Shown: piece by piece, positions 21,201 to 57,353 of the stretch
Position numbering within the stretch: the first letter of the stretch is position 1
Layout: every line of letters starts with the position of its first letter
DNA from: Mesotaenium endlicherianum
Taxonomy: Eukaryota
Direction: 5' to 3'
NCBI GenBank assembly: GCA_009602735.1
Contig: WELA01001729.1
Coordinates: forward strand, 1 to 64,000
Length of the DNA stretch: 64,000 bases
The notes under the pieces: generated by a model
What the model was told of the DNA's origin: nothing
The model's input: the letters and a program-made list of their open reading frames with translations, nothing else
Database searches by the model: none
Made by a program: the position numbers and the translations under genes

Positions 21201-21792
21201 AGTAGCAAACAGGTCAAGAAGAGAAATTACGTACAGAGCGGGTGACAACGTGTTACTATCATCCAAGAATATTTCCCTGAACAACAGGCCTGCCGGCAGC
21301 AAGTTCTCTCCCAAGTATTTGGGACCCTTCAAGATTATCCAGCAAGTCAACCCCGTTGCTTTCAAGCTAGAACTTCCCCAGACTATGCACATCGACCCCG
21401 TATTCCACGCTTCCCTCTTCAAGCCATATGTACAACCCGACAACAAGTTCCCAGGACGTGTGACAACCCCACCAGCCCCAACAATAGTGGATGATCTGTT
21501 GCAGTACGAAGTGCAAGACATAGTGGCTATGAGAAATTTCAGGAGACAGCAGCAATACTTGATCAAGTGGAAAGGATATCCAGATTCGGAGAATAGTTGG
21601 GTGGCGGCGCACTACCTTGACAAAGTTCAGAGAAAGTTGAAGCGCTTCCATGCCGCCAACCCCCATCTTGGACCAGCCCCAAGTCTCTCTGCTAGAAGCT
21701 TAAATACTTCAGGGAGGCAGCCTGCCACCATCAAGAAGCAGCAGAAGACCCTTTGGAGGCAGCCTGCAAGAACAAGAAAGAGGAAAAATTGA
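18182..21792 (+). pseudogene. pol: A2 pol (PR-RT-RH-IN-chromodomain), -1 frame to gag; premature stops at 20248 and 20739 plus a frameshift
   Basis: ORFs 18125-20248 ([24 protein letters not shown]), 20338-20739, 20797-21792 (YHPQSDGQTER, GPF, YEVQDI...YLIKWKGY...SW). Confidence 0.93.
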
Positions 21793-22417
21793 CATTAGAC
21801 ACTCTTCTCTTCTCGCAATTTCTGGAAAGAAAACTAAAACTGCTATTGGTGATAGGTCTCTGCATAGTAAATTCTGAAAAATTACCTAGCTGTAGTCCAT
21901 GAGTAGCCGGTCATTTAGAATCCACGTTTGCTCAATTTGGAGCATTGGTGAGAGAGATATGATGCTCTAAGTAGAAGGGGGTCAGGCTGCTGGCATTGTT
22001 AGGACAGAATATGCCTTCTGACATTGTGCCCTCCCCTGAACTTGGAATGCTCTGAAACTCAAGACTCTGGTAGAACATCTTGCAGCGCCCAGTTTGAGAC
22101 TTAGTTTGCAGCATTTTGAGAAATATAGAAGGACTTATGATTTTCAGAAGTTTCTGCACAGATTTGGAGGAGTGCCTACTCTCTCAGCTCTCAACAACAC
22201 TCGAGACATGAGAATGCTCTCAAATTTGGTGACCCGGTAGAGTTCTCCAACACGGTCCGTCTGGGACTCGAATTTTTAGATTTGGTGCTGTTCTGTGGCC
22301 GCTATGAATTTTTGAAATTGTGGCAAATTCTGGGCCAACTTGTACAATTTTCTTTATCATTAAGGAGTAGGCTAGCCAATAAGGTCACACCACCTACGAC
22401 CTTGCCTAGTCTACCTT

Positions 22418-22523
22418 ACATGTGTAGCACCTGACTTGGCGCCTTTGACTAGTCCTCTCCACATGTGTGGCATCTGACTTGAAACTGTTGACTAGTTTGC
22501 TCCACATGTGTAAGACCTGACTG
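22418..22523 (+). repeat. 43-bp degenerate tandem repeat (~2.5 copies, ACATGTGT...CTGACT) upstream of the A2 PPT
   Basis: ACATGTG at 22418, 22461 and 22504. Confidence 0.8.
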
Positions 22524-22561
22524 GTCGCGCTGAGACGTCGCTTTTTCTATCGGGGGGGTGA

Positions 22562-23064
22562 TGTAGTGATTTGAGTTATTATATATTAGTTTGCATATAT
22601 TTTAATGTTTTCAAATATATTTGGAGTAGTATTGTGTGGATTCAAGTGTGAATAGGTACTCTAGTGACTTGGTTCATGTCCTTTGAACCTTCGAAGGCAT
22701 TTTCGAAGTTAGAGGAAAGACCTAGAAGAACTCCATGTGGCAAAAGTCAAATGTGCCATTTTTAGGTCAAAAGGACATGTGTACATTATTCTAGAAAGAG
22801 GTGGCAAGTTTTGGGATGTGTTGGGTGCCAACACATCAACATACACTTTCCTAGAAATTACTTATGTAGCAAGTATATAAACAAGAGCTAGAACATAGAA
22901 AGACATGGGAGAATCACTCTTGTACTTGCCAAAATCCAGAAATATATTAACTTTCAAGAAGCCATCTCTCTTTCAAGAAGCTACCACTTGTGTTCAAAGA
23001 TCCTTGTCTTGAATAGATAAAGTATTCTGTTTTACTAAGTACTTTATCTATCTGTTTCACTACA
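22562..23064 (+). repeat. 3' LTR of A2
   Basis: Follows G7 PPT; direct repeat of the 5' LTR. Confidence 0.95.
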
Positions 23065-23069: not shown

Positions 23070-23476
23070 TGTGGTCAAGAAAAAGCTTGGTCCGATCTAG
23101 GTCGGTCCATATTCGATGGTGCGCTGTGTCGGTCGGAATGCTTACAAACTGACCATGTCAGCGGAATACAAGGGTCACCTTTTAATGTCTCCTTCCTGGA
23201 AGCATACATCAAAGGTGATACAGTGTTCATAGGTCGGTTACCTTCCAACCGGGACCGGTCCCCGCTGTCAGGGACGATGACCCTGAGGATTATGAGGTCA
23301 AGGAAAGTTTAGACGCTTGCTCTGTCTGTCGATCATCTAAATATGTCATGAAATACCTGGTCAGATGGAAGGGTTACGATGCCTTTGGGGATACTTGGGA
23401 ACTTAAGGACCATTTGACCAATGCCAAAGGGGCGTTGAAACGGTTCCACCTTCGGGCGACTGGCGCACCTTCCTAA
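23070..23476 (+). pseudogene. pol: B1 integrase C-terminus and chromodomain
   Basis: VVKKKLGP...GPY...YEV...YLVRWKGY...TWE...RFHLRA, homologous to 35631-36014. Confidence 0.85.
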
Positions 23477-23884
23477 CTGTCATTTCACTTGGCATAGGAC
23501 GGTGACAGGAGGTCCTGTCTCCATTTAAGTTGGGGCAATGTACAAGTAAAGGACAATTAGTGTGCGAGAAAGGGAGAGTTATTGACAGTAAAGTTTCAGC
23601 ATAGTGACAGATGTGACAGCCAGGCCCACATTAAGCTAAGTTGGCGGGTGCCCACCACTCGGAAGGATGAAGGGACCAGAACATCACCAAATCACTTAAC
23701 CTACCCTGCAAGCACAATCATTCGTTTATTCTCATTGTACTGTAGCTCCGTTAACTCCTAGTAACCACCCTATGAGGTAAAAGAGAGCAAACCTACTATA
23801 CTGATACGAACTTACTTCTCTTCTTGCAACTCCTGTGACAAAGATTGAGATCCTACTAACTTGTGCCATGGTTATATGTGCAGG

Positions 23885-25500
23885 ATGGCTCCCACCACAC
23901 AAACGGAAGACTGAAAGCGCAAGGTAGAAGAAGCCAGGTAGACAATGGAGCAATACCAGAAAGAGCTTGCGGCAACGTCCCTCACCAGGAGAGAACAAGA
24001 AAGGGTTCGCAGACAACAAGAGGCGGCAGAAGAAGCACAGAGGAAGAAGGAGCAGGAGGCGGATAATCTCAGGAAAGTTGAGGAGGAGAGACAGAGGAAA
24101 CAACAAGAAGAAGCGGCGGCAGCAGAGGAGGAGAGAAGGAAGAAGGCTGAAGCTGAGAAGCAGAAGAGCCTGGCCACTTATGGATATACTGTGGTGGGTG
24201 GCCAAACCTTTGATAACCTGAAGGAAGCATTACTAGCAGCCCAGGAGATCAACAAGGTGGAATAGAAAACAACGCTACAGAGACAAGGATCTGAACTTAT
24301 GGATAAGTACATTGAGACACACACTGGTATGGTCGTCTACGAAGATTATGCCAAAATGGTGGGGTATACAACAGAGCAGGCACGGTTCCTTGCAGAGGAC
24401 TCGGAAGATAAGCCAATACCAGTGCCTGGCATAGTGGGGAATGAGAGACTCATCAGGATGGTCAGCATGCAGCCCGATAGCTTTAAAGATGCAGTATTTT
24501 ACCTGAACTACTGCCAGCCTATGATGAAGTTGAGAAGAGGAGCTGGGAGTACTTGGCCAGGGAAATAGGGCAGCAGATGTTCTCCCCCCACTGGTTTCCT
24601 TGTAAGTTGAAAAAGGCTGAGCACGGGCCACAGTATTACGAGCAGCCCACAAACTGGAGGTGGATGACCGTCACTAACAGAAAGCAGGAGTGTGACCGGG
24701 CCCACTCAGATGACTTCCACTATGGGCTAGACGGCTACCTCATCCTACCACCTCACATTGCCCCTTGGGACCCCAGGCTGAATGGATGCCTAAGTAATAT
24801 GAATGCTAAGACCAAGGAGCACAGGAGGAGGGAAAGAGACTATTTCTCTAAGGGAAAGCATGCCTTTGTCAAATGGGCGAAGAATGTAGGGAGGATCGAT
24901 ATCAGCAGGCTGAAGGCCAAGCAACCCCCAGCTCGTCCTAAGAAAGGGCGGTCAGTAGATTTTTCCATGTCGACCAGGGAGCAAAATGACTTAGTGGACG
25001 AGACCCCTACCCTTTTAGAGGAGGAAAATGAAGAGGATGAGGAAGAGGGACAGGGCAGAGGAGAAGCATCAGGAGTTGGTACTCAGGAGACCTTAGGGCA
25101 GGCAGAAGCAGGAACTCTTAGGGCGCCAAGATCAGGTGTATGGAATGTGATCCCTACTATAGAGGCAACAGGAATCCGCACTCGTTCTTTTAGCCTACCT
25201 GCCCAAGCAAGGGAAGAAGCTGATCTAACTGTTCATGGCAGCAGAGAAAGGCAAAAATCCCCAGAGGACAGGGGTACCAAAAGAAGTAGCCAGAGGTATG
25301 CTGGCCACCTCCTTCAGTTAAGAACATGTACCTCTTGCCAATCAATTTCAGCATCCTACCGGAATGTCGGTGTATGTGGGCATTAACGCCCAGGTTGTTG
25401 AAGGGTAGGCTACCATCCTTCGTTCTCCTCAAAGCCCAATTTTAGAACAAACAGGGTTCTTTAGAATGCCAGCTGACAGAGCTAGAGTGCTGTCCAGATC
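23885..25500 (+). pseudogene. Family B accessory ORF, divergent version (stops/frameshifts; 3' end approximate)
   Basis: ORFs 23945-24265, 24299-24568, 24553-25386 align in order with 33744-35357 (DKYIE, DYA.VGYT, DSFKD, WRWMT, LPPHIA.WDPRL.G, FSKGKHA..KWA). Confidence 0.85.
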
Positions 25501-26502: not shown

Positions 26503-27008
26503 ACTTCGCACATGTGAGTATATTGACATAATGCTTATTTAGTGTTGTATTTGTACATGCAATTAATGAAAGAAATAATAAACTGATTCATTACAGTGGC
26601 TAAGAGCAAATGGCTCAAGTCCGGCCGGCATAGATGCTATAGGTTCAAAGGTTTGTAAGTTGGACATTGTAAAATTTATGCAAAAATCTTGGTGGGCAAT
26701 TTTCAATGTATTTGGCGTTGCTTGTTGACTTGCTCAGACGTCATTTTTGTAAACTATAACTTGTTCAAATTGCATGCTACTGAACTTTGGCAAAAGCCTG
26801 TTTGGAAGTAACGCTTCTGTCCTTGTGAGGAAAATTGAGTAGCAATTTTTTTTTTGCAAATTACTAATAATAAGAGCTAAGGTGGAAAGGTGACTTGGTG
26901 TGAGTAACACCAAGTGCTAACCCTCAAATTGGCTTGTGCCATTGCAGGATGACCAACAATGGTCAGTCCCAGGCACTCTGCCACCAATACATGTCACATG
27001 TGCGAAGG

Positions 27009-29160: not shown

Positions 29161-30837
29161 TTATGAGGGAGATGTTCCTGGGGCTCTACGGTTAGGGGAG
29201 CGAGATCGGAAGCCAGACCTCCTCTTTCTGTCTTGGATTCTCCTGAAGCTTGGGGGCTCCGAGTAAGGGGAATCAAGGGGAGAACGCAGTAACTGGGCTA
29301 TATCCTTGTGCACAGTTTGAAAATGAAGGGAGGCAGCCTTCTTCTGGGCATCCCTCAAACTGACAGGTACATATATCGGCATCCCAGAAGGAAGTTGCAT
29401 GACATGAGCCAAGGGCACATGTCCTCTCTACGAGGAAGATGCTGACAGGCCTCTGGCTATCTCTCTAGCAGCCCTCCTGTCTGCCCTGTCTGACTGGGTC
29501 TTTGCGCCTGCGGATGGGCTCTGTCCTCTGGCAGTTCTAACCAAGTGATATCTTCCTTTTCAGCAAGCTGGTGCAGGGCTATGTCTGCCCTGGCTAACCC
29601 AGTCTTCTCCATTACAGGGGATGTGGCAGGTGTCTGGGTCACAGCGGGGCTAGTGTCCTCTTCCTCGCCTTCCTCCTCTTCTTCCTCTAACTCCTCTTCT
29701 TCCCTCGGCTCCTCTGAGACTGCTAGTCTCCTCTGTCAGCTGCTCTAGCTCTTCCCGAGAAAAAGAATACCCCACTGACCTTCCCCTTTTGGGTGCTGGT
29801 AGGGGCTGTTGAGACCTGACCGCATACTGGTCTTTCTCTCCCTGCTTGCTTGCCCATTTGGCATAAGCGTGCTTCCCTTTAGAGAATGACTCTTGGGCCC
29901 TGCTCCTGTCCTCCTGCATTTCTTGACTCATGCAGTCTCTTACTCCATCCAATCTTGGGTCCCAAGCTGCAATGTGAGGAGGCAACACTATGTTCCCCTG
30001 TAGGTCTATTAGGAAATCTTCCTCCCCTGCCCTGTCATTTTGCTGGTCCCTCATGTTGATGGTCATCCACCGCCAATCGATGGGTTTCTGGAAGAAGGCA
30101 GGGTCTGTCCTTTTCAGCGTACAAGGGTACCAGTGCCCTGCGAAGTCCAGCTGAGTGGTTTCCCTGGCCAAGAATTCCCAGCTCCTTCTCTCCACCTCAT
30201 TATACATGGCCTTGAACCTGTTATGGGATGTGGAGTCCTTAAAGCTGTCCGCGTCCATGGGGATCATCATGATGACCCTATCTTTCCCCCAGATACCCGG
30301 AATTGATACAGCTCCTTCCTCATTCACTTGCGCCATTGCCTTGGCCTCTCTGACCGTACATCCTACCATCCTGGCATAATCGTGGTAGAGGAGGACGCCT
30401 GTGCTGACCTCTGTATACTTGTCAAAGTTTTTGGATGTCTCCCCTTCCCTCTGCAGGATGTCCTTCTGCGACTCACTGCGACTGCTGTGGGCATACTTGA
30501 AGGCCTCCTCCAGTAGATCAAAGCCCTTGCCCAGCACTGTGTAGCGGTAGCTGGTGATTCTCCTTTGTTCTTCTTTAGCCTGCTGCTTCCGCCTCTCCTC
30601 AGCTTGCCTCTCCTCTGCCTTCTTGGCCTCCACTGCAGCTTATCTGTCCAGTTCTTCCTGCCTCAACCTGGCCTGTTCCTCCTCCTCCTCCTTCTTCTGT
30701 GCCTCCCGCTGTTGTTGGAGTCGTGGTGATTCCCGAGCGGAGATGGAGGATAATTCCTTGTCGCCACGGAATTGCAAGTATTATGCATGTGCCTTTTCCG
30801 CTCTTCTCTTCCTCTTAAGTTCCGACTTCTGAGTCAT
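29161..30837 (-). pseudogene. Family B accessory ORF, B2 copy (two early stops, frameshifts)
   Basis: ORFs 29650-30633, 29457-29642, 29161-29418 homologous to 33744-35357. Confidence 0.88.
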
Positions 30838-31190
30838 CATGCTCAATCATAAACACAATGCAATCTGTGAAGTCATGGTACTTTGCCGCTACTGAGTACC
30901 CTTGGTGGAGAAGAACGTGGTAGGGAGAGTTCCAAGTGTGTAATATCTTGTGTGAGTGAGTGTAATAGGAGAACTGAGTCAGAGAGAAAAAGTGAGTGTT
31001 AGCGCAGATTGAGTGTGCAGAGTGGTTACATAAAAATTTGCTGGCTGATCCCGAGACAGAACACAAACCCTCCAACTTAATTTTAAGGTGGGCTGCCTAT
31101 CACAACTATCACTATCTATCACTAACTGTCACGTTCCCCTCCAACTTCCGTGGAGGTCCTGTCACCAATCCATGGCGGCTGAAATAACAG

Positions 31191-32880
31191 TTAGGGAGGT
31201 GTGCCAGCCGCCCGAAGGTGGAACCGCTTCAACGCTCCTTTGGCATTGGTCTGTTGGTCTTTAAACTCCCAAGTGTTCCCAGAGGCATCGTACCCCTTCC
31301 ATCTAACCAGGTACTTCATGACATATTTAGATGATCGACGAACTGAGCGTGCGTCAAAAATCTCCTCAACCTCATACTCCTCAAAGTCACCATGCCTGAC
31401 AGCGGGTACCGGTCCCGGTTGGACAGGTAACAGACCTGTGAACAGTGTGTCACCTTTGATGTACGGTTCCAGGAAGGAGACATTAAAGACTGGGTGACCC
31501 TTGTGATCTGCTGACATGTTCAGTTTGTAAGCATTCTGACCGACACGGCGCACCATCAAATATGGGCCGACCCAGACCGGACCAAGCCTTTTCTTGACCA
31601 CACCAAGCAGGTACAGGTGTTGAGAATGCAGTTTGACCAAATCGTCCTTAGAAAATGTCAGCTCTCGACGGTGCTGATTAGCGTATTTTTGTTGATTTTC
31701 TTGGGCTTTGTGCAGGTTTTGTTGGACTTTCGGCAGGGTGTCAGCAAACTCTTGGATTAACAGTTTGGAGATCGGATTGTCAATCCCTTCAAGGTGAGTA
31801 AAAGACTCTCCTAGTAAATCTAAAGGAAACTTAGGGCCTCTACCCAAGCTCAGTTCAAAAGGAGTCTTGCCCGTTGATGCGTGCACCGCACTGTTGACCG
31901 CGAACTGGATTTGAGGCAACAGGTCATCCCAGTTGTCTTGTTTTTGGTTAACATATGCTCTCAGCACCTCTTGCAGAACTCGGTTACTTCTTTTAGTCTG
32001 CCCATCAGTCTGAGGCTGGTTTGCTGTGCTGAGCAGCTGTTTGACTCCCTTTAACCCCATTAAAGCTCTCCACAACTTAGAGGTAAATTTTGTGTCTCTG
32101 TGTGAGATGATATTAGAGGGTAGCCCATGTTGGCATACTACATGGTTGTAGAACTGTCTCGCTGTTCCGAGTGCAGTTACTTTGACAGTTGTGGGGATGA
32201 AAATGCCCATTTTTGTCAGTTTATCCACTACTACCCGTATCTAATCATGCCCATTGGCAGTTCATGGTAGTATTACTACCTAGTCCATGAAACTTGTTTT
32301 CCGGCGTCCAGCTAAGATGGGCAGTGGTTGTAAAAGACCCCCCGGTGGTGTGTGCCTAGACTTATTTCTCTAACACTGATCACAAGACTTCACATATTTC
32401 AAGACCTCCCGAGGCAACCCATCCCAATGATAATGTTTTGCAAGTTTGCCAACAATTTTGGCCTGCCCCAAATGTCCACCCAGTAAACTGTCATGCGCTT
32501 GACTCAGTAAGAGGGACCTCATTTCCAAGTTATTAGAAATGACCAACTTCAGTCTACCTGAAGTGGTTTTAGTCACCGAGACCCCTCCCTTAAGCCTATA
32601 CCCGAGTGCAGTAGCAGGACACACACCATCAGTGAGGCTGGGCTCAAATGTTGGGTCCGAAAGGTCGGCTTTCCTAAGTTGTTCAAGGAAGGACCTTTTC
32701 ACCTTTAGTGAAGTGAGTGCACGAAGGACTTTATCTACAGCATGCTGACTAAAGTTCCTTTCTTGCAAGTCAGGTCTTCTAGAGAGTGCATCAACAGGAT
32801 TCAACTTCCCTGGTTTGTAGTCGATCTGGACATGGAACTGCTCCAGCATCTAGCTCCAGCGGTTCTTCCTCCTCGACAGC
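31191..32880 (-). pseudogene. pol: B2 integrase plus chromodomain
   Basis: ORFs 32370-32849 (HDSLLGGH...CDQC), 31191-32228 (PQTDGQT, GPY, YEVEEI...YLVRWKGY...TWE). Confidence 0.9.
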
Positions 32881-33601
32881 TGAAATGAATCGACTTACCA
32901 AATAGGCGATTAACAATCAATAAAGATCTTTATATTAGCAAGTAATCTTTATGGTGTTTTCCGTTAACTGGTTAAACGGCAAGGACAACACACTAGCAGT
33001 GAATAATACTCGTAAGTCAAATGCGAGTAAACTAGCATCAATAATGCAAATCACTAAACTCATACATAAGCAAGGTTAGAAGACAGTGCGTATCAATGGC
33101 TTCTCGCCTTGGATTTAGATCGCTCTCAGTAAGCTGTACCAGAGAGTTGGCCTCGTTTTTAAATGCCGAACTCGAGAGCAATGCCTAGCATATGTACATG
33201 GAATGAGTTTACTGTTCAGCGGTCAGTGCGATGGCACCGCCTACCCGGGAGTTAACCACGTTGGTAGGACCTCGGTCAACCAAATCCACTGCCATCTCCC
33301 ATCATCCCGAATCGCCATCCATCATAGGGATGTCATTTGGCCATTCATCTAGCATACCACTCTTAGATGCATATCGAGGCAGTTCGCTGCTACCGAGTAC
33401 GGAAGTCAGCTGGCTGTCAAAGAATGTGTCAGCAAGCTGACTTAAGGTGACCTCAGCCTGCTACTTCCGGCCTGAGTCATTAAACTGATATTAAATATGA
33501 AGTCCAGCAGACTGATCATTAACTAGAGTTCAGCAGGCTGAACTTATTTAACTATATTCTTTATAAGAATATTATGTCAACCAGTATACTGATTCATTAC
33601 A
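32881..33601 (-). repeat. 3' LTR of B3
   Basis: Direct repeat of 40947-41667. Confidence 0.95.
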
Positions 33602-33743
33602 ATCCCTCCAACTTATCATGTTGTCGCCTCGGCAACACTAACACTAATAACAGCGTGCTATCCCTTCCAACCCTATCCTACTGCCATACGGAGGGAGATG
33701 TTCCTGAGGCTCTATACTCAGGGGAGCCAGACCTCCTCCTGTC

Positions 33744-35348
33744 TTAGGGTCTTCTGAAGCCTGTCAGAAAGGGAGGTTCCGTGTAAGGACCTCGCGAAGA
33801 ACGCAGTAACTGGGCTGTTTCCTCCTGCACAGTCTGGAGGGAGGCCGCCTTCTCCTGGGCAGCCCTCAAACTGACAGGTACGTATATCGGCATCCCAGAA
33901 GGATGTTGCATGACATGAGCCAAGGGTACATGCCTTCTCTGCGAGGGAGATGCTGGTAGGCCTCTGGCTATTTTTCGAGCAGCCCTCGTGTCTGCCCTGT
34001 CTGACTGGGTCTCCTTGCCTGGAGAGGGGCTGTGTCCTCTGGCAGTTCCCAGCCAAGTGATATCCTCCTCTTGAGCGAGTTGCTGCGGGGCCAACCCCGT
34101 CTTCTCCCTTATAGGGGATGTGGCAGGTGTCAGGATCACGGCGGGGCTATTGTGTTCCTCCTCGCCTTCCTCCTCGTCTTCCTCCAACTCCTCCTCCTCG
34201 CCGTCCCCGGGTTCCTTTGAGACTTCTGGGGTCTCCTCTGTCAGCTGCTCCACCTCTTCCCGAGAAAAAAAATATCCTACTGACCTTCCCCTATTGGGTG
34301 CTGGTGGGGGTTGCTGAGTCCGGACCACATAGAGGTCCTTTTCCCCCTGCTTACTTGCCCATTTGGCATAAGCGTGCTTCCCTTTGGAGAATGACTCTCG
34401 GGCCCTGCTTCTGTCCCCCTGCATTTCTTGGCTCATGCAGTCTCTGACTCCATCTAATCTTGGGTCCCAAGCCGCAATGTGTGGGGGCAATACTATGTTC
34501 CCCTTTAAGTCTGTCAGGAAATTCTCATCCGTCGCCCTGTCATTCTGCTTGTCCCTCATGTTGATGGTCATCCACCGCCAATCAGTGGGCTTTTGGAAGA
34601 AGGCAGCGTCTGTCTTTTTAAAAGTACAAGGGTACCAGTGCCCTGCAAAGTCCAGCTGACTGGTTTCCCTGGCCAAGAATTTCCAGCTCCTCCTCTTCAC
34701 CTCATTGTTCATGGCCTTGAACCTGTTGTGGGGTGTTGAGTCCTTGAAGCTGTCCGCGTCCATGGGGATCATCCTGATGACCCTATCTTCCCCCCAGATA
34801 CCAGGAATCGAGACAGTCCCTGCTTCGTTCACTTGGGTCATTGCCTTGGCCTCTCCGATTGTATATCCTACCGTCCTGGCGTAATCGTGGTAGAGGAGGA
34901 GCCCTGTGCCGACCTCTATATACTTGTCAAAGTTTTTGGATGTCTCCCCTTCCTTCTGGAGGATTTCCTTCTGCGACTCACTGCGACTTCTCTGGGCATA
35001 CTTGAAGGCCTCCTCCAGTAGATCAAAGCCCTTGCCCAGCATCGTGTAGCGGTAGCTGCTGATTCTCCTCTGTTCTTCTTCTTCAGCCTGCTGCTTTCGG
35101 TTCTCCTGAGCTTGCCTCTCCTCCTCTGCTTTCTTGGCCTCCTCTGCAGCTTTTCTGTCCATTTCTTCCTGCCTCAGTATGGCCAGTTCCTCCTCCTCCT
35201 TCTTCTCCTGTGCCTCCCGCTGTTGTTGGAGTCGTTGTGATTCCCGAGCGGAGATGGAAGATGATTCGATGTCTCCACGAAATTGCAAGTATTTTGCATG
35301 TGCCTCTTCCGCCCTCCTCTTCCATTTGAGTTCCGACTTTTGAGTCAT
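33744..35348 (-). CDS. Family B accessory protein of unknown function (~534 aa from first ATG; true C-terminus uncertain)
   Basis: Open 537-codon frame between pol stop and PPT, same strand as pol; E/K/Q/R coiled coil, globular aromatic-rich core, acidic tract; homologues in three other copies. Confidence 0.85.
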   Translation of the reverse strand: MTQKSELKWKRRAEEAHAKYLQFRGDIESSSISARESQRLQQQREAQEKKEEEELAILRQEEMDRKAAEEAKKAEEERQAQENRKQQAEEEEQRRISSYRYTMLGKGFDLLEEAFKYAQRSRSESQKEILQKEGETSKNFDKYIEVGTGLLLYHDYARTVGYTIGEAKAMTQVNEAGTVSIPGIWGEDRVIRMIPMDADSFKDSTPHNRFKAMNNEVKRRSWKFLARETSQLDFAGHWYPCTFKKTDAAFFQKPTDWRWMTINMRDKQNDRATDENFLTDLKGNIVLPPHIAAWDPRLDGVRDCMSQEMQGDRSRARESFSKGKHAYAKWASKQGEKDLYVVRTQQPPPAPNRGRSVGYFFSREEVEQLTEETPEVSKEPGDGEEEELEEDEEEGEEEHNSPAVILTPATSPIREKTGLAPQQLAQEEDITWLGTARGHSPSPGKETQSDRADTRAARKIARGLPASPSQRRHVPLAHVMQHPSGMPIYVPVSLRAAQEKAASLQTVQEETAQLLRSSRGPYTEPPFLTGFRRP

Positions 35349-35630
35349 CCTGCTCAATCATAAACACAATGTATTAGTGAAGTCATGATATTTTGCCGCT
35401 ACTGGGTGCCCTTGATGAAGAGGAAGAGTTCCTAGTGTGGAATACCTGGTGTGAGTGAATATAAGGGAAAATTGAGTTGGAGAGTGAGTGTGACCGCAGG
35501 TTGAGTGTGTAATATGGTGATCAAAGAATACCACAGAATACCACTTCCTCCAACTTAATTTTAAAGGTGGGCTGCCTGTCACAACTGTCACTAACTGTCG
35601 CATCCCCCTCCGTGTCAACTGAAATGACTG

Positions 35631-38600
35631 TTAGAAAGGTGCCCCAGCCGCCCGAAGGTGGAACCGTTTCAACGCCCCTTTGGCATTGGTCAGCTGGTCT
35701 TTAAATTCCCAAGTGTCCCCAGAGGCATCGTAACCCTTCCATCGGATGAGGTACTTCATGACATATTTAGACGATCGACGGACCGAGCGAGCGTCTAAAA
35801 TCTCATCGACCTCATACTCCTCAGGATTGCCGTCCCGGACAGCGGGGACCGGTCCCAATTGGACAGGTAACCGCACTGTGAACAATGTATCACCTTTGAT
35901 GTATGGTTCCACGAAGGAGACATTAAAGACCGGGTGACCCTTACAGTCAGCTGACATGTTCAGTTTGTAAGCATTCTGACCGACACGACGTACCACCGAA
36001 TATGGACCGACCATACAGGGCCAAGCTTTTTCTTAACCACACCAGGGAGGTACAGGTGCTGAGAATGCAGTTTGACTAAATCGCCCTTAGAAAATGTCAG
36101 CTCCCGACAGTGTTGATTAGCGTATTTTTGTTGGTTTTCTTGGGCTTTGTGCAGGTTTTGTTGGACTTCTGACAGGGTGTCAGCAAACTCCTGAGTTAAC
36201 TGGAGGGAGACCGGGTTGTCAATCCCTTCAGGGTCAGTTAAAGACTCCCCCAGTACATCTAAAGGAGACTTAGGGACTCTACCCAGGCTGAGATCGAAAG
36301 GAGTCTTGCCCGTTGACGTGTGCACCGCACTGTTGACCGCAAACTGAATTTGAGGCAACACGTCATCCCAATTATCTTGTTTATGATTAATATATGCCCT
36401 CAGCACCTCCTGCGGAACTCGATTAGTTCTTTCAATCTGCCCATCAGTTTGAAGGTGGTTTGCTGTGCTGAGCAGCTGTTTGACTCCCATTAACCCCATT
36501 AAAGCTCTCCAGTACTTAGAGGTGAATTTTGGTCTCTATCTGAGATAATATTAGAAGGTAGCCCTTGTTGGCATACTACATGGTTGTAAAACTGTCTCGC
36601 TGTTTCGAGTGCAGTTACTTTGACAGTTGTGGGGATGAAAATGACCATTTTTGTCAGTTTATCCGCGACTACCAATATCGAATCATGCCCATTGGCAGTT
36701 CGTGGCAGTGTGACCACCCAGTCCATGGATATAGTTTCCCAGCGGCCAACTGGGATGGGCAGTGGTTGCAAGAGACCTCCGGGTGGTGTGTGTCGAGACT
36801 TATTTCTCTGACACTGGTCACAGGACTTGACATATTTCAAGACCTCCCGGGGTAACCCCTCCCAATGATAATGTTTTGCCAGTTTGCCAACAGTTTTGGC
36901 CTGCCCCAAATGTCCACCCAGGAGACTGTCATGAGCTTGACTCAGTAAGAGAGACCTTATTTCCAAGTTATTAGGAATGACCAGCTTCAGCCTGCATGAA
37001 GTGGTTTCAGTCACCCAGACCCCTCCCTTAAGCTTATACCCGAGTGCAGTAGCACGACACACACCAGTTGTGGGGCTGAGCTCAAATGTTGGGTCAGAAA
37101 GGTAGGCTTTCCTAAGTTGTTCTAGGAAGGACTTTTTCACCTTTAGTGAAGTGAGTGCACACAGGACTTTATCTACAGCGTGCTGACTAAAGTTCCTTTC
37201 TTGCAAGACAGGTCTTCTAGAGAGTGAATCAGCAGGATTCAACTTTCCTTGTTTGTAGTCGATCTGGACTTGGAACTGCTCCAGCATCTGGCTCCAGCGG
37301 TTCTCCCTCCTCGACAGCTTGGACTTCTTCTGAAAGTGGGTCAGAGCTAGACGATCGGTAATCAACTTAAAGGCTTTACCATGTAAGAATGCTCTCCATT
37401 GTTTGAGTACATGAATGATAGCTAGCAGCTCTTTATCATGCACTGAGTAATTAATCTCCGCTGGATTAAATTTCATAGACTCATACAACACAGGATGCCA
37501 CTCCTGCCGTACCTTACCATCCTTTGTGGTTTTGTCAGCAGGCTGCAACAAAATAGCACCCATGGCAAAGTCAGAGGCATCAGTAACCACCTGCACCGGT
37601 TTGCTGGGGTCATACACGGCTAGCACTGGGGCGAAACAAAGGGCATCTTTAAGGGCCTGGAAGGCAGCCTGCTGGTCTTCCCCCCACACATACCCAATGT
37701 CTTTCTTAGTAAGGTCAGTCAGTTTACTGGCCTTTGTGGAATAATTATCAATAAATCTCCTATAGTAGTTAGCCAACCCGAGGAAGGATCTGACTTCAGA
37801 GACGAACTGTGGTACTGGCCAGTCCCGTATGGTCTGGACTTTCTTAGGATCCACACTGATGCCCTCTTTACTGACAACGTGGCCTAAGAATTCAATACTT
37901 TCCTTCAAGAAATCACACTTGCTCATTTTAGCATATCAGTGATTTTTCCGCACAGTGTCCAGGACTGTTTTTAAGTGTCCAGTGTGCTGAGCTTCATCTT
38001 TAGAGAAAATTAAAATATCATCCAGGAAAACTTGCACAAACTTATCCAAATAAGGTCTGAAAATGTCATTCATAGCACCCATGAAGGTAGCCGGAGCATT
38101 AGTCAGTCCAAATGGCATCACGTTGAAGTCATAGTGTCCATAACGTGTGCGGAAGGCTGTCTTGTGTTCATCTCCCTCAGCAATTCTGATTTGATGATAA
38201 CCACTCTTGAGATCTATCTTACTGAAAACCTTAGCTGCAGACAGGGTATCAAGCAAGTCCTTGATTTTGGGTAAAGCATACTTGTTCTTTACTGAATTCT
38301 GTTCAGGGCTCTGTAATCCACACATATTCGCATACTGCCATCCTTTTTCTTAACAAATAGGATGGGTGCGTCGTACGGTGATTTACTGGGAGAAATATAA
38401 CCATTTTCCTCCAGCTCTGCAATCTGTGTTTTAACTCCTCACTCTCCAAATAAGACAAGCCATACGTGCGTTGCCAAGGTGGCTATTTACCCGGTAATAA
38501 ATCAATCCGATGATCTACTTCCCTCTTAGCGGGAAGTCCTGGAGGCATATTAAATACATCCGTGTACTGAGCAACAATTTTTGCAGCAGTAGGGTGCTCC

Positions 38601-39437
38601 GGAGGGTTTACCTTTTTTCTCAACCACTTCTTCAGGTTGAGGAGGTACCTCTCTTAGCAGCAGACAGAACATTCTGTCTTCCTTCTGGTTCCAGCTTTTG
38701 ACGAACTCCATTGCATTCAGCAACTTGCATCCTTCTGGAAGCCTCTTCTTTTCCTTCATTTGCCATCCACACAGGACAAGAGGAAGAGCACTGGTGGGTG
38801 CCAAGTCAGTCTGCCCATCACTGGCTCCTCTCACTTTAACTGTACCTCTGCTCCAACACACTTCAGCTTGATGTCTATTAAGCCAGGACCTGCCTAGCAC
38901 GAGATCATAAAAGCCAGTGTTGAGTACCTCAAATGTAAGCGTTTCAGTTAGAACTGCAATGCCAGAACCTAACTGGACCTCAATAGGCTTGGTTATAACT
39001 CCTCCCGGGATACTTGAGGCATCTCCAAGGAATATTTTTCTATTCCCTTGGGTGACAGTAGGCAGCCTTAGCCGCTTAACTAAGTCCTTGTGGATTTAAG
39101 TATGTGACGCCCCTCCATCAACAAATGCCCTCACCTTTCTACCTGCAATCATGCAATGCAGTAGGATAGGGGGGATTGTCATTTCCTGACTTTCGCATTG
39201 TTCTCCTGACTTAGCAAATAAATGTTGGACATCAGGTGGAACAAGAGCATCCAGAGTGTGCACTCTCTGGACGTCTATATTACTGATGGTCTCCTTTATC
39301 TGTTTGTCAGGCATGCATAGTGAATCCAGTTCAGCAGGACCCATAATACCTGCTACGAGGGCAGCTAGTGACGACTCACTATCTCTAGCATCCTCACAGT
39401 CAGTAGACTGGATTACTGACTGTTGCTGTCTTTTAAA
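35631..39437 (-). pseudogene. pol: B3 pol (PR, RT, RH, IN, chromodomain) with several frameshifts/stops
   Basis: ORFs 39096-39344, 38550-38900, 37936-38325 (FLDDILI), 36499-37926, 35960-36499, 35631-36014. Confidence 0.92.
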
Positions 39438-40912
39438 GGCTGGTCTTTTCTCTCGACCTTAGGCAGGTGCCTGACCGGACACTGTTCTCTGTAGTGGCCT
39501 TTCTGCTGACAATGGTAGCAAGTAGATTTTGCTGAGGCTGGTCTCGGGTTAGTCCTACCACCACCCCTGCCATAGTCGCCTCGAGAGGACCCACCTCTAC
39601 CTCTAGACTGAATAGCATTGTACTCATACTCATATTCATCACCCTGATTATCCTCAGCCTGGTCTCCTTCAACTGCATTGTAGGAACCGTGGGGCTTTTT
39701 GACAATCTTAGACACCAAAGCGTTACTCTGGCGCTTGTGATTGAACTGCTGCTGATCCCAGGCGTCAGCATCCTGGATCAAGTCAGCCAGTTTCTCATAC
39801 TTTTTCTCAGCAAAATGACCAGAGACCTCGGATTTCAAGCCATACCTGAAGTATGCTATCCTATACCGTTCTGGCAAATCAGGCTGCTTCATCATGTTCT
39901 CTTGGAACTTTTGAGCAAACTCAGCAACTGAAGTGGTCTGCTTCAGTGTCAGGGAGATCATCGCATAGATAGCTTTCTCCTGCTGATTGATGACATCAAA
40001 CTTCTCATGCAACTTCTTGACAAACTCTACCCACGTAGGGTCCCCGAGTNCCCGAGTTGCCGAGCCTTACGCTCCCCCTTCCAGTAAAGCCACCAATCTG
40101 CGGCACTGCCTTTCAGTAGCGCACCGGTGTGCCTGACCTTCTCGTCATCTTGCAGTTCTGGGTAGTTCTCCACCCACTGCTCAACATCCGCGAGAAACTT
40201 GATCAGGTAATATTTTCTGTTTCCCTCAGGATCATATTCCTGGGGAGGTTTCGGCTTGGGCTTACTAGGCCCTCGGCCACCACCACTAGTGGTTTGAGAC
40301 CCCAGTTGGTCTCTGTCCCGCAGTAGGGACATTATGATTCTTTTGTCCTCCTGCTGGGACTGATACATGGTCGCCATTTGCGACTTCATTCGGACGAACA
40401 TTGCTCCTTAGTCTACACTCTGGGGTGGTAGATAAGCAAATGCAGCAGCAGCATTGGCATCTACTCGCTGAGTAGTGTCCTCTACAATCCCTCTCGCTCC
40501 TGCAGCAGCAATTCCTGCCGCATTCAGCCGGTCACGTATTTGACCTAGGGGTACATTGAGTTGTACAGCAGGAGGTGGGCTCACAACATTGGCCCTTGAT
40601 GCCATAAGTTNTGGATGCCATAAGTTCTTCAACCGTGCGCTCGTCAGCGAGCTGTCCTTCCCTCCTTTCTGTATCCTCAGCAGCCTTTGCTAATTGTTCA
40701 GCTAATCTGGCTCTCTCCTCCTCAGCTTGCTGTGCTGCGACTGCGGCAATAGCAGCTGCTTCATCTGTAGCCTCTCTAGCTGCAGTATCCGCGACTGTTT
40801 CAGAATAGGTACGGGTTCCCGCTACATGGCTTTCCGCCTGGTTTTTGACATTCTCGTTATCCTGGTTCTCCATGTCTCGGGAGTTGCTAGTTTGTGACCT
40901 CGTCCTTACCAT
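39413..40912 (-). pseudogene. gag: B3 gag (MVRTRSQ start, capsid, RGG tract, CYHCQQKGHYREQC knuckle); two breaks coincide with N gaps, plus a stop at 40408
   Basis: ORFs 40532-40912, 40408-40632, 40027-40401, 39413-40012. Confidence 0.88.
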
Positions 40913-40933
40913 ACAAAGAAGACTACGATAACT

Positions 40934-40945
40934 GCTCCGATACCA
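40934..40945 (-). promoter_or_regulatory. PBS TGGTATCGGAGC of B3
   Basis: 1 nt from the 5' LTR end. Confidence 0.92.
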
Positions 40946-40946
40946 C

Positions 40947-41667
40947 TGAAATGAATCGACTTACCACATAGGCGATTAACAATTAATAAAGATTTTTATT
41001 GCAGCAAGTAATCTTTATGGTATTTTTCGTTAACTGGTTAAACGGCAAGGACAACACACTAGCAGTGAATAATACTCGTAAGTCAAATGCGAGTAAACTA
41101 GCATCAATAATGCAAATCAGTAAACTCATACATAAGCAAGGTTAGAAGACAGTGCGTATCAATGGCTTCTCGCCTTGGATTCAGATTGCTCTCAGTAAGC
41201 TGTACCAGAGAGTTCGCCTCGTTTTCGAATGCCGAACTCGAGAGCAATGCCTAGCATATGTACATGGAATGAGTTTACTGTTCAACGGTCAGTGCGATGG
41301 CACCGCCTACCCGGGAGTTAACCACGTTGGTAGGACCTCGGTTAACCAAATCCACCGCCATCTCCTATCATCCCGAATAGCCATCCATCATAGGGATGTC
41401 ATCTGGCCATTCATCTAGCATACCACACTTAGATGCATATTGAGGCAGTTCGCTGCTACCGAGTACGGAAGTCAGCTGGCTATCAAAGAATGTGTCAGCA
41501 AGCTGACTTAAGGTGATCTCAGCCTGCTACTTCCGGGCTGAGTCATTAAACTGATATTAAATATGAAGTCCAGCAGACTGATCATTAACTAGAGTTCAGC
41601 AGGCTGAACTTATTTAACTATATTACTTAAACAAATATTATAACAACCAGTGTATTGATTCATTACA
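40947..41667 (-). repeat. 5' LTR of B3
   Basis: TGTAATGAATC...GATTCATTTCA termini on minus strand. Confidence 0.95.
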
Positions 41668-44600
41668 ACAGCTTGGACTTCTTCTGAAAGTGGGTCAGAG
41701 CTAGATGATCTGTAATCACCTTAAAGGCTTTACCATGTAAGTATGCGCTCCACTGTTTGAGCACATGAATAACAGCTAGGAGCTGTTTATCATGCACTGA
41801 GTAATTAATCGCTGCTGGATTAAATTTCATATACTCGTACAACACAGGTTGCCATTCCTGCCTTACATGGTTGTCGAACTGTCTTGCTGTTTCGAGTGCA
41901 GTTACTTTGACAGTTGTGGGGATGAAAATGACCATTTTTGTTAGTTTATCCACGACTACCAGTATCAAATCATGCCCAGTAGCATTTCGTGGCAGTGTGA
42001 CCACCCAGTCTATGGATATAGTTTCCCAGCGTCTCGCTGGGATGGGCAGCGGTTGCAAGAGACCTCTCGGTGGTGTGTACCTAGATTTATTTCTTTGACA
42101 CTAATCACAGGATTTCACATATTTCAAGACCTCTCGGGGCAACCCCTCCCAATGATAATGTTTTGCCAGTTTGCCAACAGTTTTGGCCTGCCCCAAATGC
42201 CTACCGAGTAAACTGTCATGTGCTTGACTCAATAAAGGGACTTTATTTCCAAGTTATTAGGAATGACCAGCTTCAGCTTGCCTGAAGTGGTTTCAGTCAC
42301 CCAGACCCCTCCCTTAAGTTTATACGCAAGTGCAGTAGCACGACACACACATCAGCAGGATTCAACTTCCCTGGTTTGTAGTCGATCTGGACTTGGAACT
42401 GCTCCAGCACCTGGCTCCAGCAATTCTCCCTCCTCGACAGCTTGGACTTCTTCTAAAAGTGGGTCAAAGCTGGACGATCTGTAATCAACTTAAAGGCTTT
42501 ACCATGTAAGAATGCTCTTCACTGTTTGAGCACATGAATGATAGCTAGCAGCTCTTTATCATGCTTTGAGTAATTAATCGCTGCTGGAATAAATTTCATA
42601 TACTCGTACAACACATGTTGCCATTCCTGCCTTACCTTACCGTCCTTTGTGGTTTTGTCCGCAAGCTGCAACAAAATAGCACCCATGGCAAAGTCAGAGG
42701 CATCAGTGACCACCTGCACCGGTTTGCTGGGGTCATACACGGCTAGCACTGGGGCAGAACAAAGGGCATCTTTAAGGGTCTGGAAGGCAGCCTGCTACTC
42801 TTCCCCCCACGCATACCCTATATCTTTCTTAGTAAGGTCAGTCAGTTTACTGGCCTTTGTGGAGTAATTCTCAATAATTTTCCTATAGTAGTTAGCACCA
42901 GACAGGGTATCAAGCAAGTCCTCGATTCTGGGTAAAGCATACTTGTTCTTTACCGTAATTTTGTTCAGGGCTCAATAATCCACACACATCCGCATATTGC
43001 CACCTTTTTTTTAACAGATAGGATGGGTGCGCCGTAAGGTGATTTACTGGGGGATATATAACCATTTTCCTCAAGCTCTGCAATCTGTGTTTTCAACTCC
43101 TCGCTCTCCACATAAGACAAGCCATAAGTGCGTTACCAAGGTGGCTGATTACCCGGTAATCAATCAATCCGATGATCTACTTCCCTCTTAGGGGGTAGTC
43201 CTGGAGGCATATTAAATACATCCGTGTACTGAGCAACAATTTTTGCAGCAGTAGGGTGCTCCGGAGTGCTTACCTTTTTCTCCACCACTTCTTCAGGTTG
43301 AGGAGGTACCTCTCTTAGCAGCAGACAGAACATTCTGTCTTCCTTCTGGTTCCAGCTGTCGATGAACTCCATTGCATTCAGCAATTTGCATCCTCCTGGA
43401 AGCCTCTCCTTTTCCTTCATCCGCCATCCGTACAGGACAAGAGGAAGAGCACTGGTGGGTGCCAAGTTAGTCTGCCCATCACTGGCTTCTCTCACTGTAA
43501 CAATACCTCTACTCCAACACACTTCAGCTTGATGTATGTTAAGCCAAGACCTGCCTAGCACGAGATCATAAAAGCTAGTGTTGAGTACCTCAAATGTATG
43601 CGTTTCAGTTAGAACTGCATTGCCAGAACCTAACTGGACATCAATAGGCTTGGTTATAACTCCTCTCGGGATACTTGAGGCATCTCCAAGGAATATTTTT
43701 CTATTCCCTTGGGTGATAGTTTGCAGCCTTAGCCGCTTAACTAAGTCCTTATGGATGAAAGTATGTGACGCTCCTCCGTCAACAAATGCCCTCACCTTCC
43801 TACCTGCAATCATACAATGTAGTAGAGTAGGGGAGACTGAGTTTTCCTGACTTTCGCATTGTTCTCCTTACTTGGCAAGGAAATGGTGGACATCAGGTGG
43901 AACACAATCATTCAGAGTGTGCTTTCTCTGGGGATCTATATTGCTGATGGTCTCACTTATCTGTTTTCCAGGCATGCATAGTGAATCCAGTTCAACAGGA
44001 CCCATAATACCTGCTACGAGGGCAGCTAGTGACAACTCACTATCTCCAGCCTCCTCACAATCAGTAGACTGGATTACTGACTGTTAATGTCTTTCAAAGG
44101 CTGGTCCTTTTTCTCGACCTTTGGAAGGTGCTTGACTGGACACTGCTCTTTGTAGTGACCCAGCTGCTGGCAATGGAAGCAAATCGATTTTGCTGAGGCT
44201 GGTCTTGGCTTAATCCTACCATTACCTCTTCCATAGCCACCTCGAAAGTAACCACCTCTCCCTGTAGACAGCATAGCATATGCTCATACTCATACTCATT
44301 AGCCTGATTGTCCTCAGCCTGGTCTCTTGCAATTGCATTGTAGGAACCGTGTGGCTTTTTGACAATCTTAGGCACCAAAGTATTACTCTGGCGCTTGTGA
44401 TTGAACTGCTGCTGATCCCAGGCGTAAGCATCGTGGATCAAGTCAGTCAGTTTCTCATATTTCGTTTCAGCAAAATGACCTGAGACTTTGGATATCAACC
44501 TATACCTGAAGTATGATATCCTATATCGCTCTGGCAACTCTGGCTGCTTCATCATGTTCTCTTGGAACTTTTGAGCAAACTCAGCAACTGAAGTGGTCTG

Positions 44601-55650: not shown

Positions 55651-57353
55651 TTACTGATCCCTCTCCCATCCAGCTTGCTGTGCCCCTGGCCCTCCGCCCT
55701 TAGAAGGGAGATGCCCCTGGGGCCCTATGGTCAGGGGAGTCAGCCCTCTTCCTATCTTGGGGTCTTCTGAAGCCTGTCGGAGAGGGAGGTTCCGTGTAGG
55801 GACCCGGCGGAGAACGCAGTAACTATGCTGTTTCCTCCTGCACGGTCTGGAACTGAATGGAGGCAGGCTTCTCCTGGGCATCCCTCAAACTGACTGGTAC
55901 ATATACCGACATCCCAGAAGGATGTTGCATGACATGAGCTAAGGGTACATGCCCTCTATGCGAGGGAGATGCCGGCAGGCCTCTGGCTATTTCTCTAGCA
56001 GCCCTCCTGTCTGCCCTGTCTGACTGGGTCTTCGTGCCTGGAGATGGGTCTTGTCCTCTGGCAGTTCCCAGCCAAGTGATATCCTCCTCCTCAGCGAGTT
56101 GCTGTAGGGCCAACCCCGTCTTCTCCCTTCCAGGGGATGTGGCAGGTGTCAGGATCACGGCGGGGCTAGTGTCCTCTTCCTCGCCTTCCTCCTCTTCTTC
56201 CTCAAACTCCTCTTCTTCCCCTGGCTCCTCAGAGACTGCTAGTCTCCTCTGTCAGCTGCTCTAGCTCTTCCCGAGAAAAAGAATACTCCACTGACCTTCC
56301 CCTTTTGGGTGCTGGTGGGGGCTGTTGAGTCCTGACCGCATACAGGTCTTCCTCTCCCTGCTTGCTTGCCCATTTGGCATAAGCGTGCTTTCCTTTAGAG
56401 AATGACTCTTGGGCCCTGCTCCTGTCCTCCTGCATTTCTTGACTCATGCAGTCTCTTACTCCATCCAATCTTGGGTCCCAAGCTGCAATGTGAGGAGGCA
56501 ACACTATGTTCCCCTGCAGGTCTGTTAGGAGTTCTTCCTCCCCTGCCCTGTCATTTTGCTGGTCCCTCATGTTGATGGTCATCCACCGCCAATCGATGGG
56601 TTTCTGGAAGAAGGCAGGGTCTGTCCTTTTCAGCGTACAAGGGTACCAGTGCCCTGCGAAGTCCAGCTGAGTGGTTTCCCTGGCCAAGAATTCCCAGCTC
56701 CTTCTCTCCACCTCATTATACATGGCCTTGAACCTGTTATGGGATGTGGAGTCCTTAAAGCTGTCCGCGTCCATGGGGATCATCCTGATGACCCTATCTT
56801 TCCCCCAGATACCCGGAATTGATACAGCTCCTTCCTCATTCACTTGCGCCATTGCCTTGGCCTCTCTGACCGTACATCCTACCATCCTGGCATAATCGTG
56901 GTAGAGGAGGACGCCTGTGCTGACCTCTGTATACTTGTCAAAGTTTTTGGATGTCTCCCCTTCCCTCTGCAGGATGTCCTTCTGCGACTCACTGCGACTG
57001 CTGTGGGCATACTTGAAGGCCTCCTCCAGTAGATCAAAGCCCTTGCCCAGCACTGTGTAGCGGTAGCTGGTGATTCTCCTCTGTTCTTCTTTAGCCTGCT
57101 GCTTCCGCCTCTCCTCAGCTTGCCTCTCCTCTGCCTTCTTGGCCTCCACTGCAGCTTATCTGTCCAGTTCTTCCTGCCTCAACCTGGCCTGTTCCTCCTC
57201 CTCCTCCTTCTTCTGTGCCTCCCGCTGTTGTTGGAGTCGTGGTGATTCCCGAGCGGAGATGGAGGATAATTCCTTGTCGCCACGGAATTGCAAGTATTAT
57301 GCATGTGCCTTTTCCGCTCTTCTCTTCCTCTTAAGTTCCGACTTCTGAGTCAT
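55651..57353 (-). pseudogene. Family B accessory ORF, B6 copy
   Basis: ORFs 56229-57149, 55823-56158, 55651-55881; same early stops as the B2 copy. Confidence 0.88.

What the first reader, a model, noticed from the sequence alone, without database searches (positions are those of the whole stretch)
33744..35348. Chromovirus family carrying an unrecognised, non-env accessory gene between pol and the 3' LTR
Seen: a ~535-codon sense-strand ORF after the chromodomain stop in full-length B3, and at the same position in B1, B2 and B6. Architecture: ~100-aa E/K/Q/R coiled coil, ~250-aa globular core (DKYIE..TG, DYA..VGYT, DSFKD, HW(Y/F)PC, WRWMT, LPPHIA.WDPRL.G, FSKGKHA..KWA), acidic/disordered linker, short conserved C-terminal motif. 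No signal peptide or hydrophobic TM stretch. It stays open in B3 while B3 pol has several disruptions. Established: chromoviruses normally encode only gag-pol; extra ORFs are better known from Athila, Tat/Ogre and SIRE. Inference: an element-encoded accessory factor (anti-silencing, targeting or particle trafficking are candidates). I do not recognise the domain.
Basis: partly seen in the sequence, partly recalled or inferred. Interest (0 to 1): 0.88.

Follow-up and report, generated by a model that had tools for sequence, protein, structure and literature searches.

The report
Orphan third gene in algal-type chromovirus
A high-copy gypsy-type jumping gene carries, after its polymerase gene, an intact extra gene that is under purifying selection and matches no known protein; it is likely made from a spliced RNA and may help the element's full-length RNA leave the nucleus, but extra genes at this position are a known kind of add-on.

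Summary
The ORF is real: 534 codons (33744-35348, minus strand), sense to gag-pol, between the chromodomain stop and the PPT of a full-length chromovirus (B3). It evolved under purifying selection: core dN/dS 0.18-0.20, against 0.21-0.43 for pol. No homolog was found in Pfam, PHROGs, PDB, two protein databases or three contig collections; AlphaFold failed (pLDDT 35). Corrections: only B3 is intact; B2 and B6 share lesions and are not independent; the N-terminus looks like a charged single helix, not a coiled coil; Tekay chromoviruses already have 3' sense ORFs (18% in REXdb). New here: the family carries two deeply diverged versions of the gene (45% amino-acid identity, synonymous sites saturated) on a backbone 86-88% identical, both at high depth in public DNA. 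Both keep a branch-point motif exactly 23 nt before an AG that abuts the start codon, and a perfect donor motif sits in U5. This predicts an env-style spliced mRNA for a non-membrane protein. Splicing was not observed: two polyA RNA runs show only trace reads. Best guess is a CERV/Rev-like nuclear regulator of the unspliced RNA (about 0.3). New variant of a known kind.

The parts
40947..41667 (-). B3 5' LTR (721 bp, TG...CA)
   Evidence: LTR pair differs at 34 of 722 aligned sites, K=0.049
40959..40965 (-). Predicted splice donor G|GTAAGT in U5, 18 nt inside the LTR end
   Evidence: GTAAGT at this place in 7 of 7 LTR copies with an intact end; the eighth copy is cut there. Use as a donor is inferred
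40934..40945 (-). Primer-binding site, plant tRNA-iMet type (assignment recalled)
39413..40912 (-). gag (broken in B3); its ATG is followed by a second donor-like GTAAG
39431..39437 (-). Slippery-type heptamer TTTAAAA at the gag/pol overlap (predicted -1 frameshift)
   Evidence: inferred
35631..39437 (-). pol: protease, RT, RNase H, integrase, SH3-like, chromodomain (broken in B3)
   Evidence: Pfam hits on B3, B2 and B6 frames
35544..35556 (-). Second, PPT-like copy upstream of the extra gene
   Evidence: also in B2 and B6, two copies each; degenerate in B1
35349..35379 (-). Predicted 3' splice site: branch-point heptamer, 23 nt, AG, then one G and the ATG
   Evidence: same spacing in B1 at 23854-23884; both signals degraded in B2/B6; splicing not observed
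33744..35348 (-). Extra ORF, type I, 534 aa, intact (B3)
35061..35249 (-). aa 34-96: E/K/R-rich charged single alpha-helix-like segment
34269..35060 (-). aa 97-360: conserved Trp-rich orphan core; ends in a P-K-[KR]-G-R NLS-like motif (intact in B1, B2, B6; N for K in B3)
   Evidence: the NLS reading is from a recalled consensus
33870..33932 (-). aa 473-493: short C-terminal motif shared with B1
   Evidence: DNA of a second organism label covers it in type II
33602..33614 (-). 3' polypurine tract
32881..33601 (-). B3 3' LTR; 5-bp target duplication ACAGC at 32876-32880 and 41668-41672
29239..30837 (-). B2 copy, type I, broken
55760..57353 (-). B6 copy, type I, broken, shares lesions with B2
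23854..25465 (+). B1 copy, type II (diverged version) with its predicted acceptor, broken

Best explanation
The ORF is a conserved third gene of this chromovirus family, likely translated from a spliced subgenomic RNA and predicted to encode a soluble nuclear protein that would help the unspliced genomic RNA escape splicing or nuclear retention, as CERV does for the nematode element Cer1. Shown: intact ORF, purifying selection, high depth of two diverged versions in public DNA, no membrane segment, no homolog found. Inferred: (1) functional element gene, about 0.9; (2) expression by splicing from the U5 donor (40964) to the acceptor at 35350, which would remove PBS and gag-pol as a 5.6-kb intron and put the ORF's ATG one base after the junction, about 0.6; (3) nuclear location, about 0.5; (4) a role in export or stabilisation of unspliced RNA rather than another trans-acting role, about 0.3 overall. 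The protein would act in trans, so copies that lost it (B2/B6) could still be carried along.
For: dN/dS of the core 0.20 (95% bootstrap 0.13-0.31) B3/B2, 0.18 (0.11-0.29) B3/B6, about 0.18 B3/B1 with dS saturated; pol controls between different copies 0.21-0.43. Only the reading frame shows the synonymous excess (42 syn/38 non-syn against 9-18/62-67 in four other frames and 33/43 in the antisense frame that shares third positions), and it stays without CpG sites (29/23). 7 of 9 distinct indels keep the frame, P=0.008. DNA run X1: mean depth 183k on the type II ORF and 153k on the 90 nt before its ATG, against 23k and 9k on its 5' and 3' UTRs; organism C also covers 23820-24075. Branch motif plus acceptor directly before an ATG occurs at 7 of 2290 ATGs in the window; two are the two ORF types and three are one pol site in three copies. 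The 8.8-kb sense strand has 7 donor-consensus hits; the U5 one is kept in 7 of 7 intact LTR ends. [quoted passage not shown]
Against: No spliced read and almost no RNA on the gene: in two polyA runs (about 6% and 12% read) the type I core had depth 0-0.2 except one bin at 6 in X24 (6 reads, 2 start places); type II had at most 0.9 in single bins; no RNA joint was listed. No sequence link to CERV or Rev was found in any search, and no RNA-binding or export motif was identified. The U5 donor lies next to the terminal inverted repeat, so its conservation may reflect the integrase attachment site. The splice pattern was noticed first and counted afterwards. The NLS-like motif is degenerate in B3, the only intact copy. 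Family A in the same window has no such ORF, so chromoviruses here do not need one.
Confidence: 0.3

Rival explanations
1. Anti-silencing or counter-defence factor: the protein acts in trans on the element's DNA or small RNAs to relieve methylation or RNA silencing (as recalled for VANC proteins and viral silencing suppressors).
For: Two old, exchangeable versions on one backbone (45% aa identity, dS about 2.4, while LTR and integrase are 86-88% identical) fit a host-facing module. The family is CpG-depleted (o/e 0.5) and nearly silent in the RNA runs. A silencing role was suggested for Tekay 5' ORFs (PMC11728184, passages).
Against: dN/dS about 0.18, no sign of positive selection; no similarity to a known suppressor.
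Confidence: 0.25
2. Particle or pre-integration-complex cofactor: the long charged helix acts as a spacer linking the core to Gag or integrase for nuclear import, trafficking or target choice.
For: Architecture of helix, folded core, acidic linker and short conserved C-terminal motif suits an adaptor; retroviral accessory proteins in import are cited as a model in PMC7264820.
Against: The integrase already carries a chromodomain with the three aromatic-cage positions; a Tudor/PWWP-like idea for aa 222-290 got no Pfam support at E<=10.
Confidence: 0.2
3. Real gene, but expressed from an internal promoter or by re-initiation; the splice-like motifs are chance or belong to a short 5' UTR intron. 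Function as in any of the above.
For: 282-nt spacer with donor-like AG|GT sites about 100 nt before the acceptor in B3 and B1; Grande gene23 has its own promoter.
Against: The local donor-like site of B1 lies in a bin with depth 3k against 153k for the acceptor bin, so it is not conserved in the family.
Confidence: 0.12
4. Env-like or cell-to-cell movement protein.
For: Env position and predicted env-style splicing.
Against: No signal peptide or TM stretch; no viral match.
Confidence: 0.05
5. Captured host or foreign gene fragment that is carried passively or was recently domesticated.
For: Three of four copies are broken; the host proteome could not be searched (no genome held).
Against: Selection acts between element copies; coding part conserved across very many copies while UTRs drift; no cellular homolog; not expressed like a host gene.
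Confidence: 0.06

Closest known systems
[quoted passage not shown]
   Same: Position, orientation, family-wide presence, lack of a known domain; splicing reported for Bagy2; Retand sense ORFs also lack TM regions.
   Different: Host element is a chromovirus with a group I chromodomain; no TM; no match to Athila ORF-1, Transposase_28 or plant mobile domain.
Tekay chromovirus extra ORFs (REXdb: 33% 5'F, 12% 5'R, 18% 3'F, 8% 3'R of 782; sunflower and grass 5' ORFs, PMC11728184)
   Same: Conserved orphan ORF in a chromovirus, helical plus disordered parts, NLS-like motif.
   Different: Described Tekay ORFs are 5' and in seed plants; this element is not near the four seed-plant pol sequences in my tree and has the aromatic cage; REXdb lists no extra ORF for Chlamyvir, Tcn1, Galadriel, Reina or CRM.
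CERV of C. elegans Cer1 (PMC10309623)
   Same: About 520-aa non-env orphan at the env position of a Ty3/gypsy element, spliced mRNA, helical N-terminus, candidate NLS.
   Different: CERV is a fusion with gag exons and has a G-protein-like domain; no sequence link found; here splicing and function are only predicted.
Antisense 3' ORFs (Grande gene23, RIRE2, Retand, fungal Boty)
   Same: Accessory gene between pol and 3' LTR; gene23 is nuclear.
   Different: Opposite strand, own promoter.

Membership tests
Chromovirus (Ty3/gypsy) | LTR-gag-PR-RT-RH-INT order with PBS, PPT and target duplication | tested here: met
Chromovirus (Ty3/gypsy) | Chromodomain at the integrase C-terminus | tested here: met
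   PF00385 E=2e-8 on the B2 frame; same segment in B3
Chromovirus, group I chromodomain clades (Chlamyvir, Tcn1, Galadriel) | Three aromatic-cage residues | tested here: met
   Y, W and Y at the three positions by eye in B2/B3/B6, compared with the clade table
Chlamyvir clade | Groups with Chlamyvir in an RT/RH tree; gag-stop-pol layout | tested here: inconclusive
   B3 is a long branch with support 0.17-0.64 among unnamed hits, no REXdb references in the tree; gag/pol overlap rather than a single stop; best named hits Tetradesmus and Closterium at 40-46%
Tcn1 clade | Self-priming, no tRNA PBS (83% of members) | tested here: not met
   tRNA-Met-type PBS (table)
aORF-3S / eORF-3'F | Forward ORF of 250 codons or more between pol and 3' LTR, outside tandem repeats | tested here: met
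   534 codons; definition
aORF-3S / eORF-3'F | Present in many copies of the family | tested here: met
   4 of 4 B copies in the window that keep a 3' end; X1 depth type I 268k, type II 183k, pol 786k
env / env-like | Signal peptide and transmembrane segment | tested here: not met
   max KD19 0.65; no dedicated predictor available
env / env-like | Spliced subgenomic mRNA | tested here: inconclusive
   signals present; no RNA coverage at the junction
CERV/Rev-like export factors | Sequence or fold homology | tested here: inconclusive
   no hit in any search; AlphaFold models unusable; no direct pairwise comparison with CERV was run
CERV/Rev-like export factors | Binds unspliced genomic RNA and is needed for its export | not testable with these tools
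   needs bench work

The most novel reading that the evidence does not exclude
An algal-type chromovirus has independently evolved a complex-retrovirus layout: a U5 donor splices out PBS and gag-pol to express an orphan-fold regulator that licenses export of the unspliced genome, and the family keeps two ancient, exchangeable versions of this regulator cassette on one recombining backbone.
Probability: 0.15. Interest if true: 0.8.

Novelty: new variant of a known kind. Interest (0 to 1): 0.5.

Why it matters
The function of non-env extra ORFs in plant-lineage LTR retrotransposons is an open question (PMC7264820). This one is unusually tractable: an intact 534-aa copy, clear purifying selection, two diverged versions that mark the conserved residues, and a precise splice junction to test. 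If confirmed it would extend spliced accessory genes to group I chromoviruses, where the REXdb survey lists none, and add an orphan protein domain. The class itself is known, and this scan has noted similar orphan ORFs in other genomes, which caps the surprise.

Tried and rejected
Homology: Pfam, PHROGs, PDB sequences (one xylanase at E=1.4, rejected), phage genomes (74), 5.8-billion-protein search with the whole protein (7; lengths 293-935) and with the core alignment (47; lengths 41-462), proteins above 935 aa not searched; 1.84-billion representatives (17): 1 hit, P0001, a Thr-rich repeat protein matching one 30-45 aa stretch several times, rejected as chance. Contig scans: metagenomes (29, 56), viral (57), prokaryote genomes (58): 74, 136, 26 and 50 pattern matches, none confirmed. 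These collections hold few algal genomes, so the blank is weak evidence of true orphan status. Structure: AlphaFold single sequence pLDDT 35.5, 5-row alignment 34.4; no fold search or complex prediction was run on such models. The ESM Atlas gave no answer, so language-model look-alikes remain unchecked. Tudor/PWWP-like barrel at aa 222-290: a by-eye resemblance from memory, no Pfam support. No whole genome is held, so copy number, linkage to B LTRs and ORF-less copies could not be counted directly. No RNA holder was listed by the run index. RNA depth at 33957-34225 comes from host reads matching the acidic repeat (loose ends) and was discarded. Clade placement by tree was unresolved (119 of 121 proteins kept). 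Literature: 7 full-text searches listed no paper describing a sense 3' ORF in an algal chromovirus; subscription papers, including Steinbauerova 2011, are not held.

Full report
Observation. The ORF exists as described: 33744-35348 on the minus strand, 534 aa. It lies in element B3 (32881-41667), which has two 721-bp LTRs differing at 34 of 722 aligned sites (K=0.049), a 5-bp target duplication, a tRNA-Met-type PBS, gag, PR-RT-RH-INT with SH3-like and chromo domains and a PPT. The ORF is sense to gag-pol and starts 282 nt after the pol stop. Its length is far beyond chance (longest open frame in 2000 simulations 433 codons, observed 537). The PBS type (recalled) and the best named pol hits, Tetradesmus and Closterium at 40-46%, suggest a green alga or other non-seed green plant; this is inference.

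Copies. All four B copies in the window that keep a 3' end carry the gene. Only B3 is open. B2 and B6 share two stops and a 2-nt deletion and are 96-100% identical over about 3.1 kb but 83-90% over their 3' ends, so they count as one lineage, probably homogenised by conversion or recombination. B1 is different in kind: its chromodomain region and LTR are 86-88% identical to B3, but the stretch between pol stop and PPT does not align by blastn, and its ORF core is 45% identical in protein and 58% in DNA with synonymous sites saturated (dS about 2.4, against 0.38 in pol). The family therefore holds two old versions of the cassette (type I, type II) on a younger shared backbone, most simply by cassette exchange. 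A PPT-like copy sits just upstream of the cassette.

Selection. Nei-Gojobori dN/dS for the core (aa 101-360) is 0.20 and 0.18 for B3 against B2 and B6, with bootstrap upper limits of 0.31 and 0.29; N-terminal helix 0.33-0.37, tail 0.40-0.42; pol controls 0.21-0.43 (the near-identical B2/B6 integrase pair gave 0.79 on 14 differences and is uninformative). The synonymous excess is specific to the reading frame and persists without CpG sites. Seven of nine distinct indels keep the frame (P=0.008). In public DNA run X1, summed contig depth is 268k on the type I ORF, 183k on type II, 786k on pol and 1.7 million on the LTR, while listed single long contigs have depth 50-150. The tool warns that this is no copy number, and B1 is a poorer bait (381k on its chromodomain against about 690k for B3), so I read only that both types are very abundant and together could cover most family members. 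For type II the coding part is 8-20 times deeper than its UTRs.

Protein. Residues 34-96 are 54% E/K/R with 3 of 18 hydrophobic heptad core positions and 29 i+3/i+4 E-K/R pairs: a charged single alpha-helix is a better reading than a coiled coil. The core (97-360) is Trp-rich and conserved between types, ending in P-K-[KR]-G-R, an NLS-like motif by recalled consensus, altered in B3. An acidic linker and a 21-residue conserved motif follow. No hydrophobic segment exists. No homolog was found in Pfam, PHROGs, PDB, phage genomes, two very large protein collections or three contig collections; the single hit was a repeat artefact. Both AlphaFold runs failed (pLDDT 35.5, 34.4), so the fold is unknown.

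Expression signals. A downstream sense ORF needs splicing, an internal promoter or re-initiation. In both types the ATG is preceded by GCAG-G, with a branch-point heptamer (TACTAAC in B1, CACTAAT in B3) exactly 23 nt upstream, inside UTRs that otherwise do not align. That pattern precedes 7 of 2290 ATGs in the window; two are these genes, three are one pol site repeated. Both signals are degraded in the dead B2/B6 lineage. The 90 nt before the type II ATG have X1 depth 153k against 3k in the bin before. A perfect donor, G|GTAAGT, lies 18 nt inside the U5 end in 7 of 7 intact LTR ends, and another donor-like site follows the gag ATG. Splicing from U5 would yield an mRNA without PBS or gag-pol, as for retroviral env. 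This is prediction. Two polyA RNA runs with the same species label as X1 (about 6% and 12% read) show LTR reads at depth up to 43, antisense-looking reads over integrase, and only traces on the ORF: 6 reads from 2 start places on type I in X24, depth under 1 in single bins on type II, and no listed RNA joint. Gag-pol sense depth is also low (0-10), so the family is nearly silent there; this argues against a constitutive host gene and leaves splicing untested.

Mechanism. I commit to a trans-acting nuclear regulator of the element's own RNA, in the manner of CERV, at about 0.3. No homology supports the comparison. Anti-silencing (0.25) fits the two exchangeable versions; a particle or integration cofactor (0.2) fits the adaptor-like layout; env-like function (0.05) and passive cargo (0.06) are unlikely.

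Known context. [quoted passage not shown] In the REXdb survey (PMC6317226: passages, section 9 and three supplementary files) Tekay chromoviruses have forward 3' ORFs in 18% of 782 elements, while Chlamyvir (44), Tcn1 (1500), Galadriel, Reina and CRM have none listed; the Athila row of that table looks column-shifted, so the Tekay split by position carries some doubt. Tekay 5' ORFs are described in PMC11728184 (passages). PMC9289625, PMC3350952 and PMC6338049 (passages) added nothing closer. Seven searches listed no description of such a gene in an algal chromovirus. This scan's notes hold 11 findings with similar words in at least 5 other genomes, none similar in sequence and none in this genome.

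Verdict. A real, selected, orphan accessory gene; new variant of a known kind. The two-version cassette and the precise splice prediction raise it above a routine extra ORF; lack of expression, fold and function keep it at 0.5.

Noticed in passing
window 39431-39437 (-): gag and pol of family B overlap at a TTTAAAA heptamer that fits a -1 ribosomal frameshift, unlike the gag-stop-pol layout typical of Chlamyvir.
   Followed up: partly
window 35544-35556, 31069, 31138, 57585, 57654: PPT-like copies about 60-140 nt after the pol stop (one in B3, two in B2 and B6): central PPT or relic of the 3' end from before the cassette was gained.
   Followed up: partly
window 29770-32875 and 56260-59394: B2 and B6 are 96-100% identical over about 3.1 kb but 83-90% in their 3' parts and LTRs: likely gene conversion or recombination between copies 26 kb apart.
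   Followed up: partly
window 35302-36915 and 23070-23524: PolyA reads over the integrase/chromodomain appear antisense to the element and stop near the start of the extra ORF; sense LTR reads appear to end near 33165 (strand inferred from host reads).
   Followed up: no
window 16383-23064 and 1-4818: Family A chromovirus (LTRs K=0.02), nested in B1's integrase, has no ORF of 150 codons in its 770-nt 3' region; its pol groups near Closterium elements in my tree.
   Followed up: partly
window 7680-11960: A GC-rich (58-62%) stretch with inverted-repeat-like ends rich in CGTACG interrupts the RT of a third gypsy element; possibly a non-autonomous DNA transposon or host fragment.
   Followed up: no
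window 44866-50100: Full-length copia element (361-bp LTRs, K=0.034) with stronger CpG depletion (o/e 0.3) than the gypsy elements.
   Followed up: no
whole window: CpG is depleted (o/e 0.5) but CHG is not (1.1), unlike the recalled pattern of land-plant repeats.
   Followed up: no
window 26909-26955 (+): A branch-point plus TGCAG|GATG motif like that of the extra ORF lies in non-B sequence between two LTRs; may be a host exon boundary.
   Followed up: no
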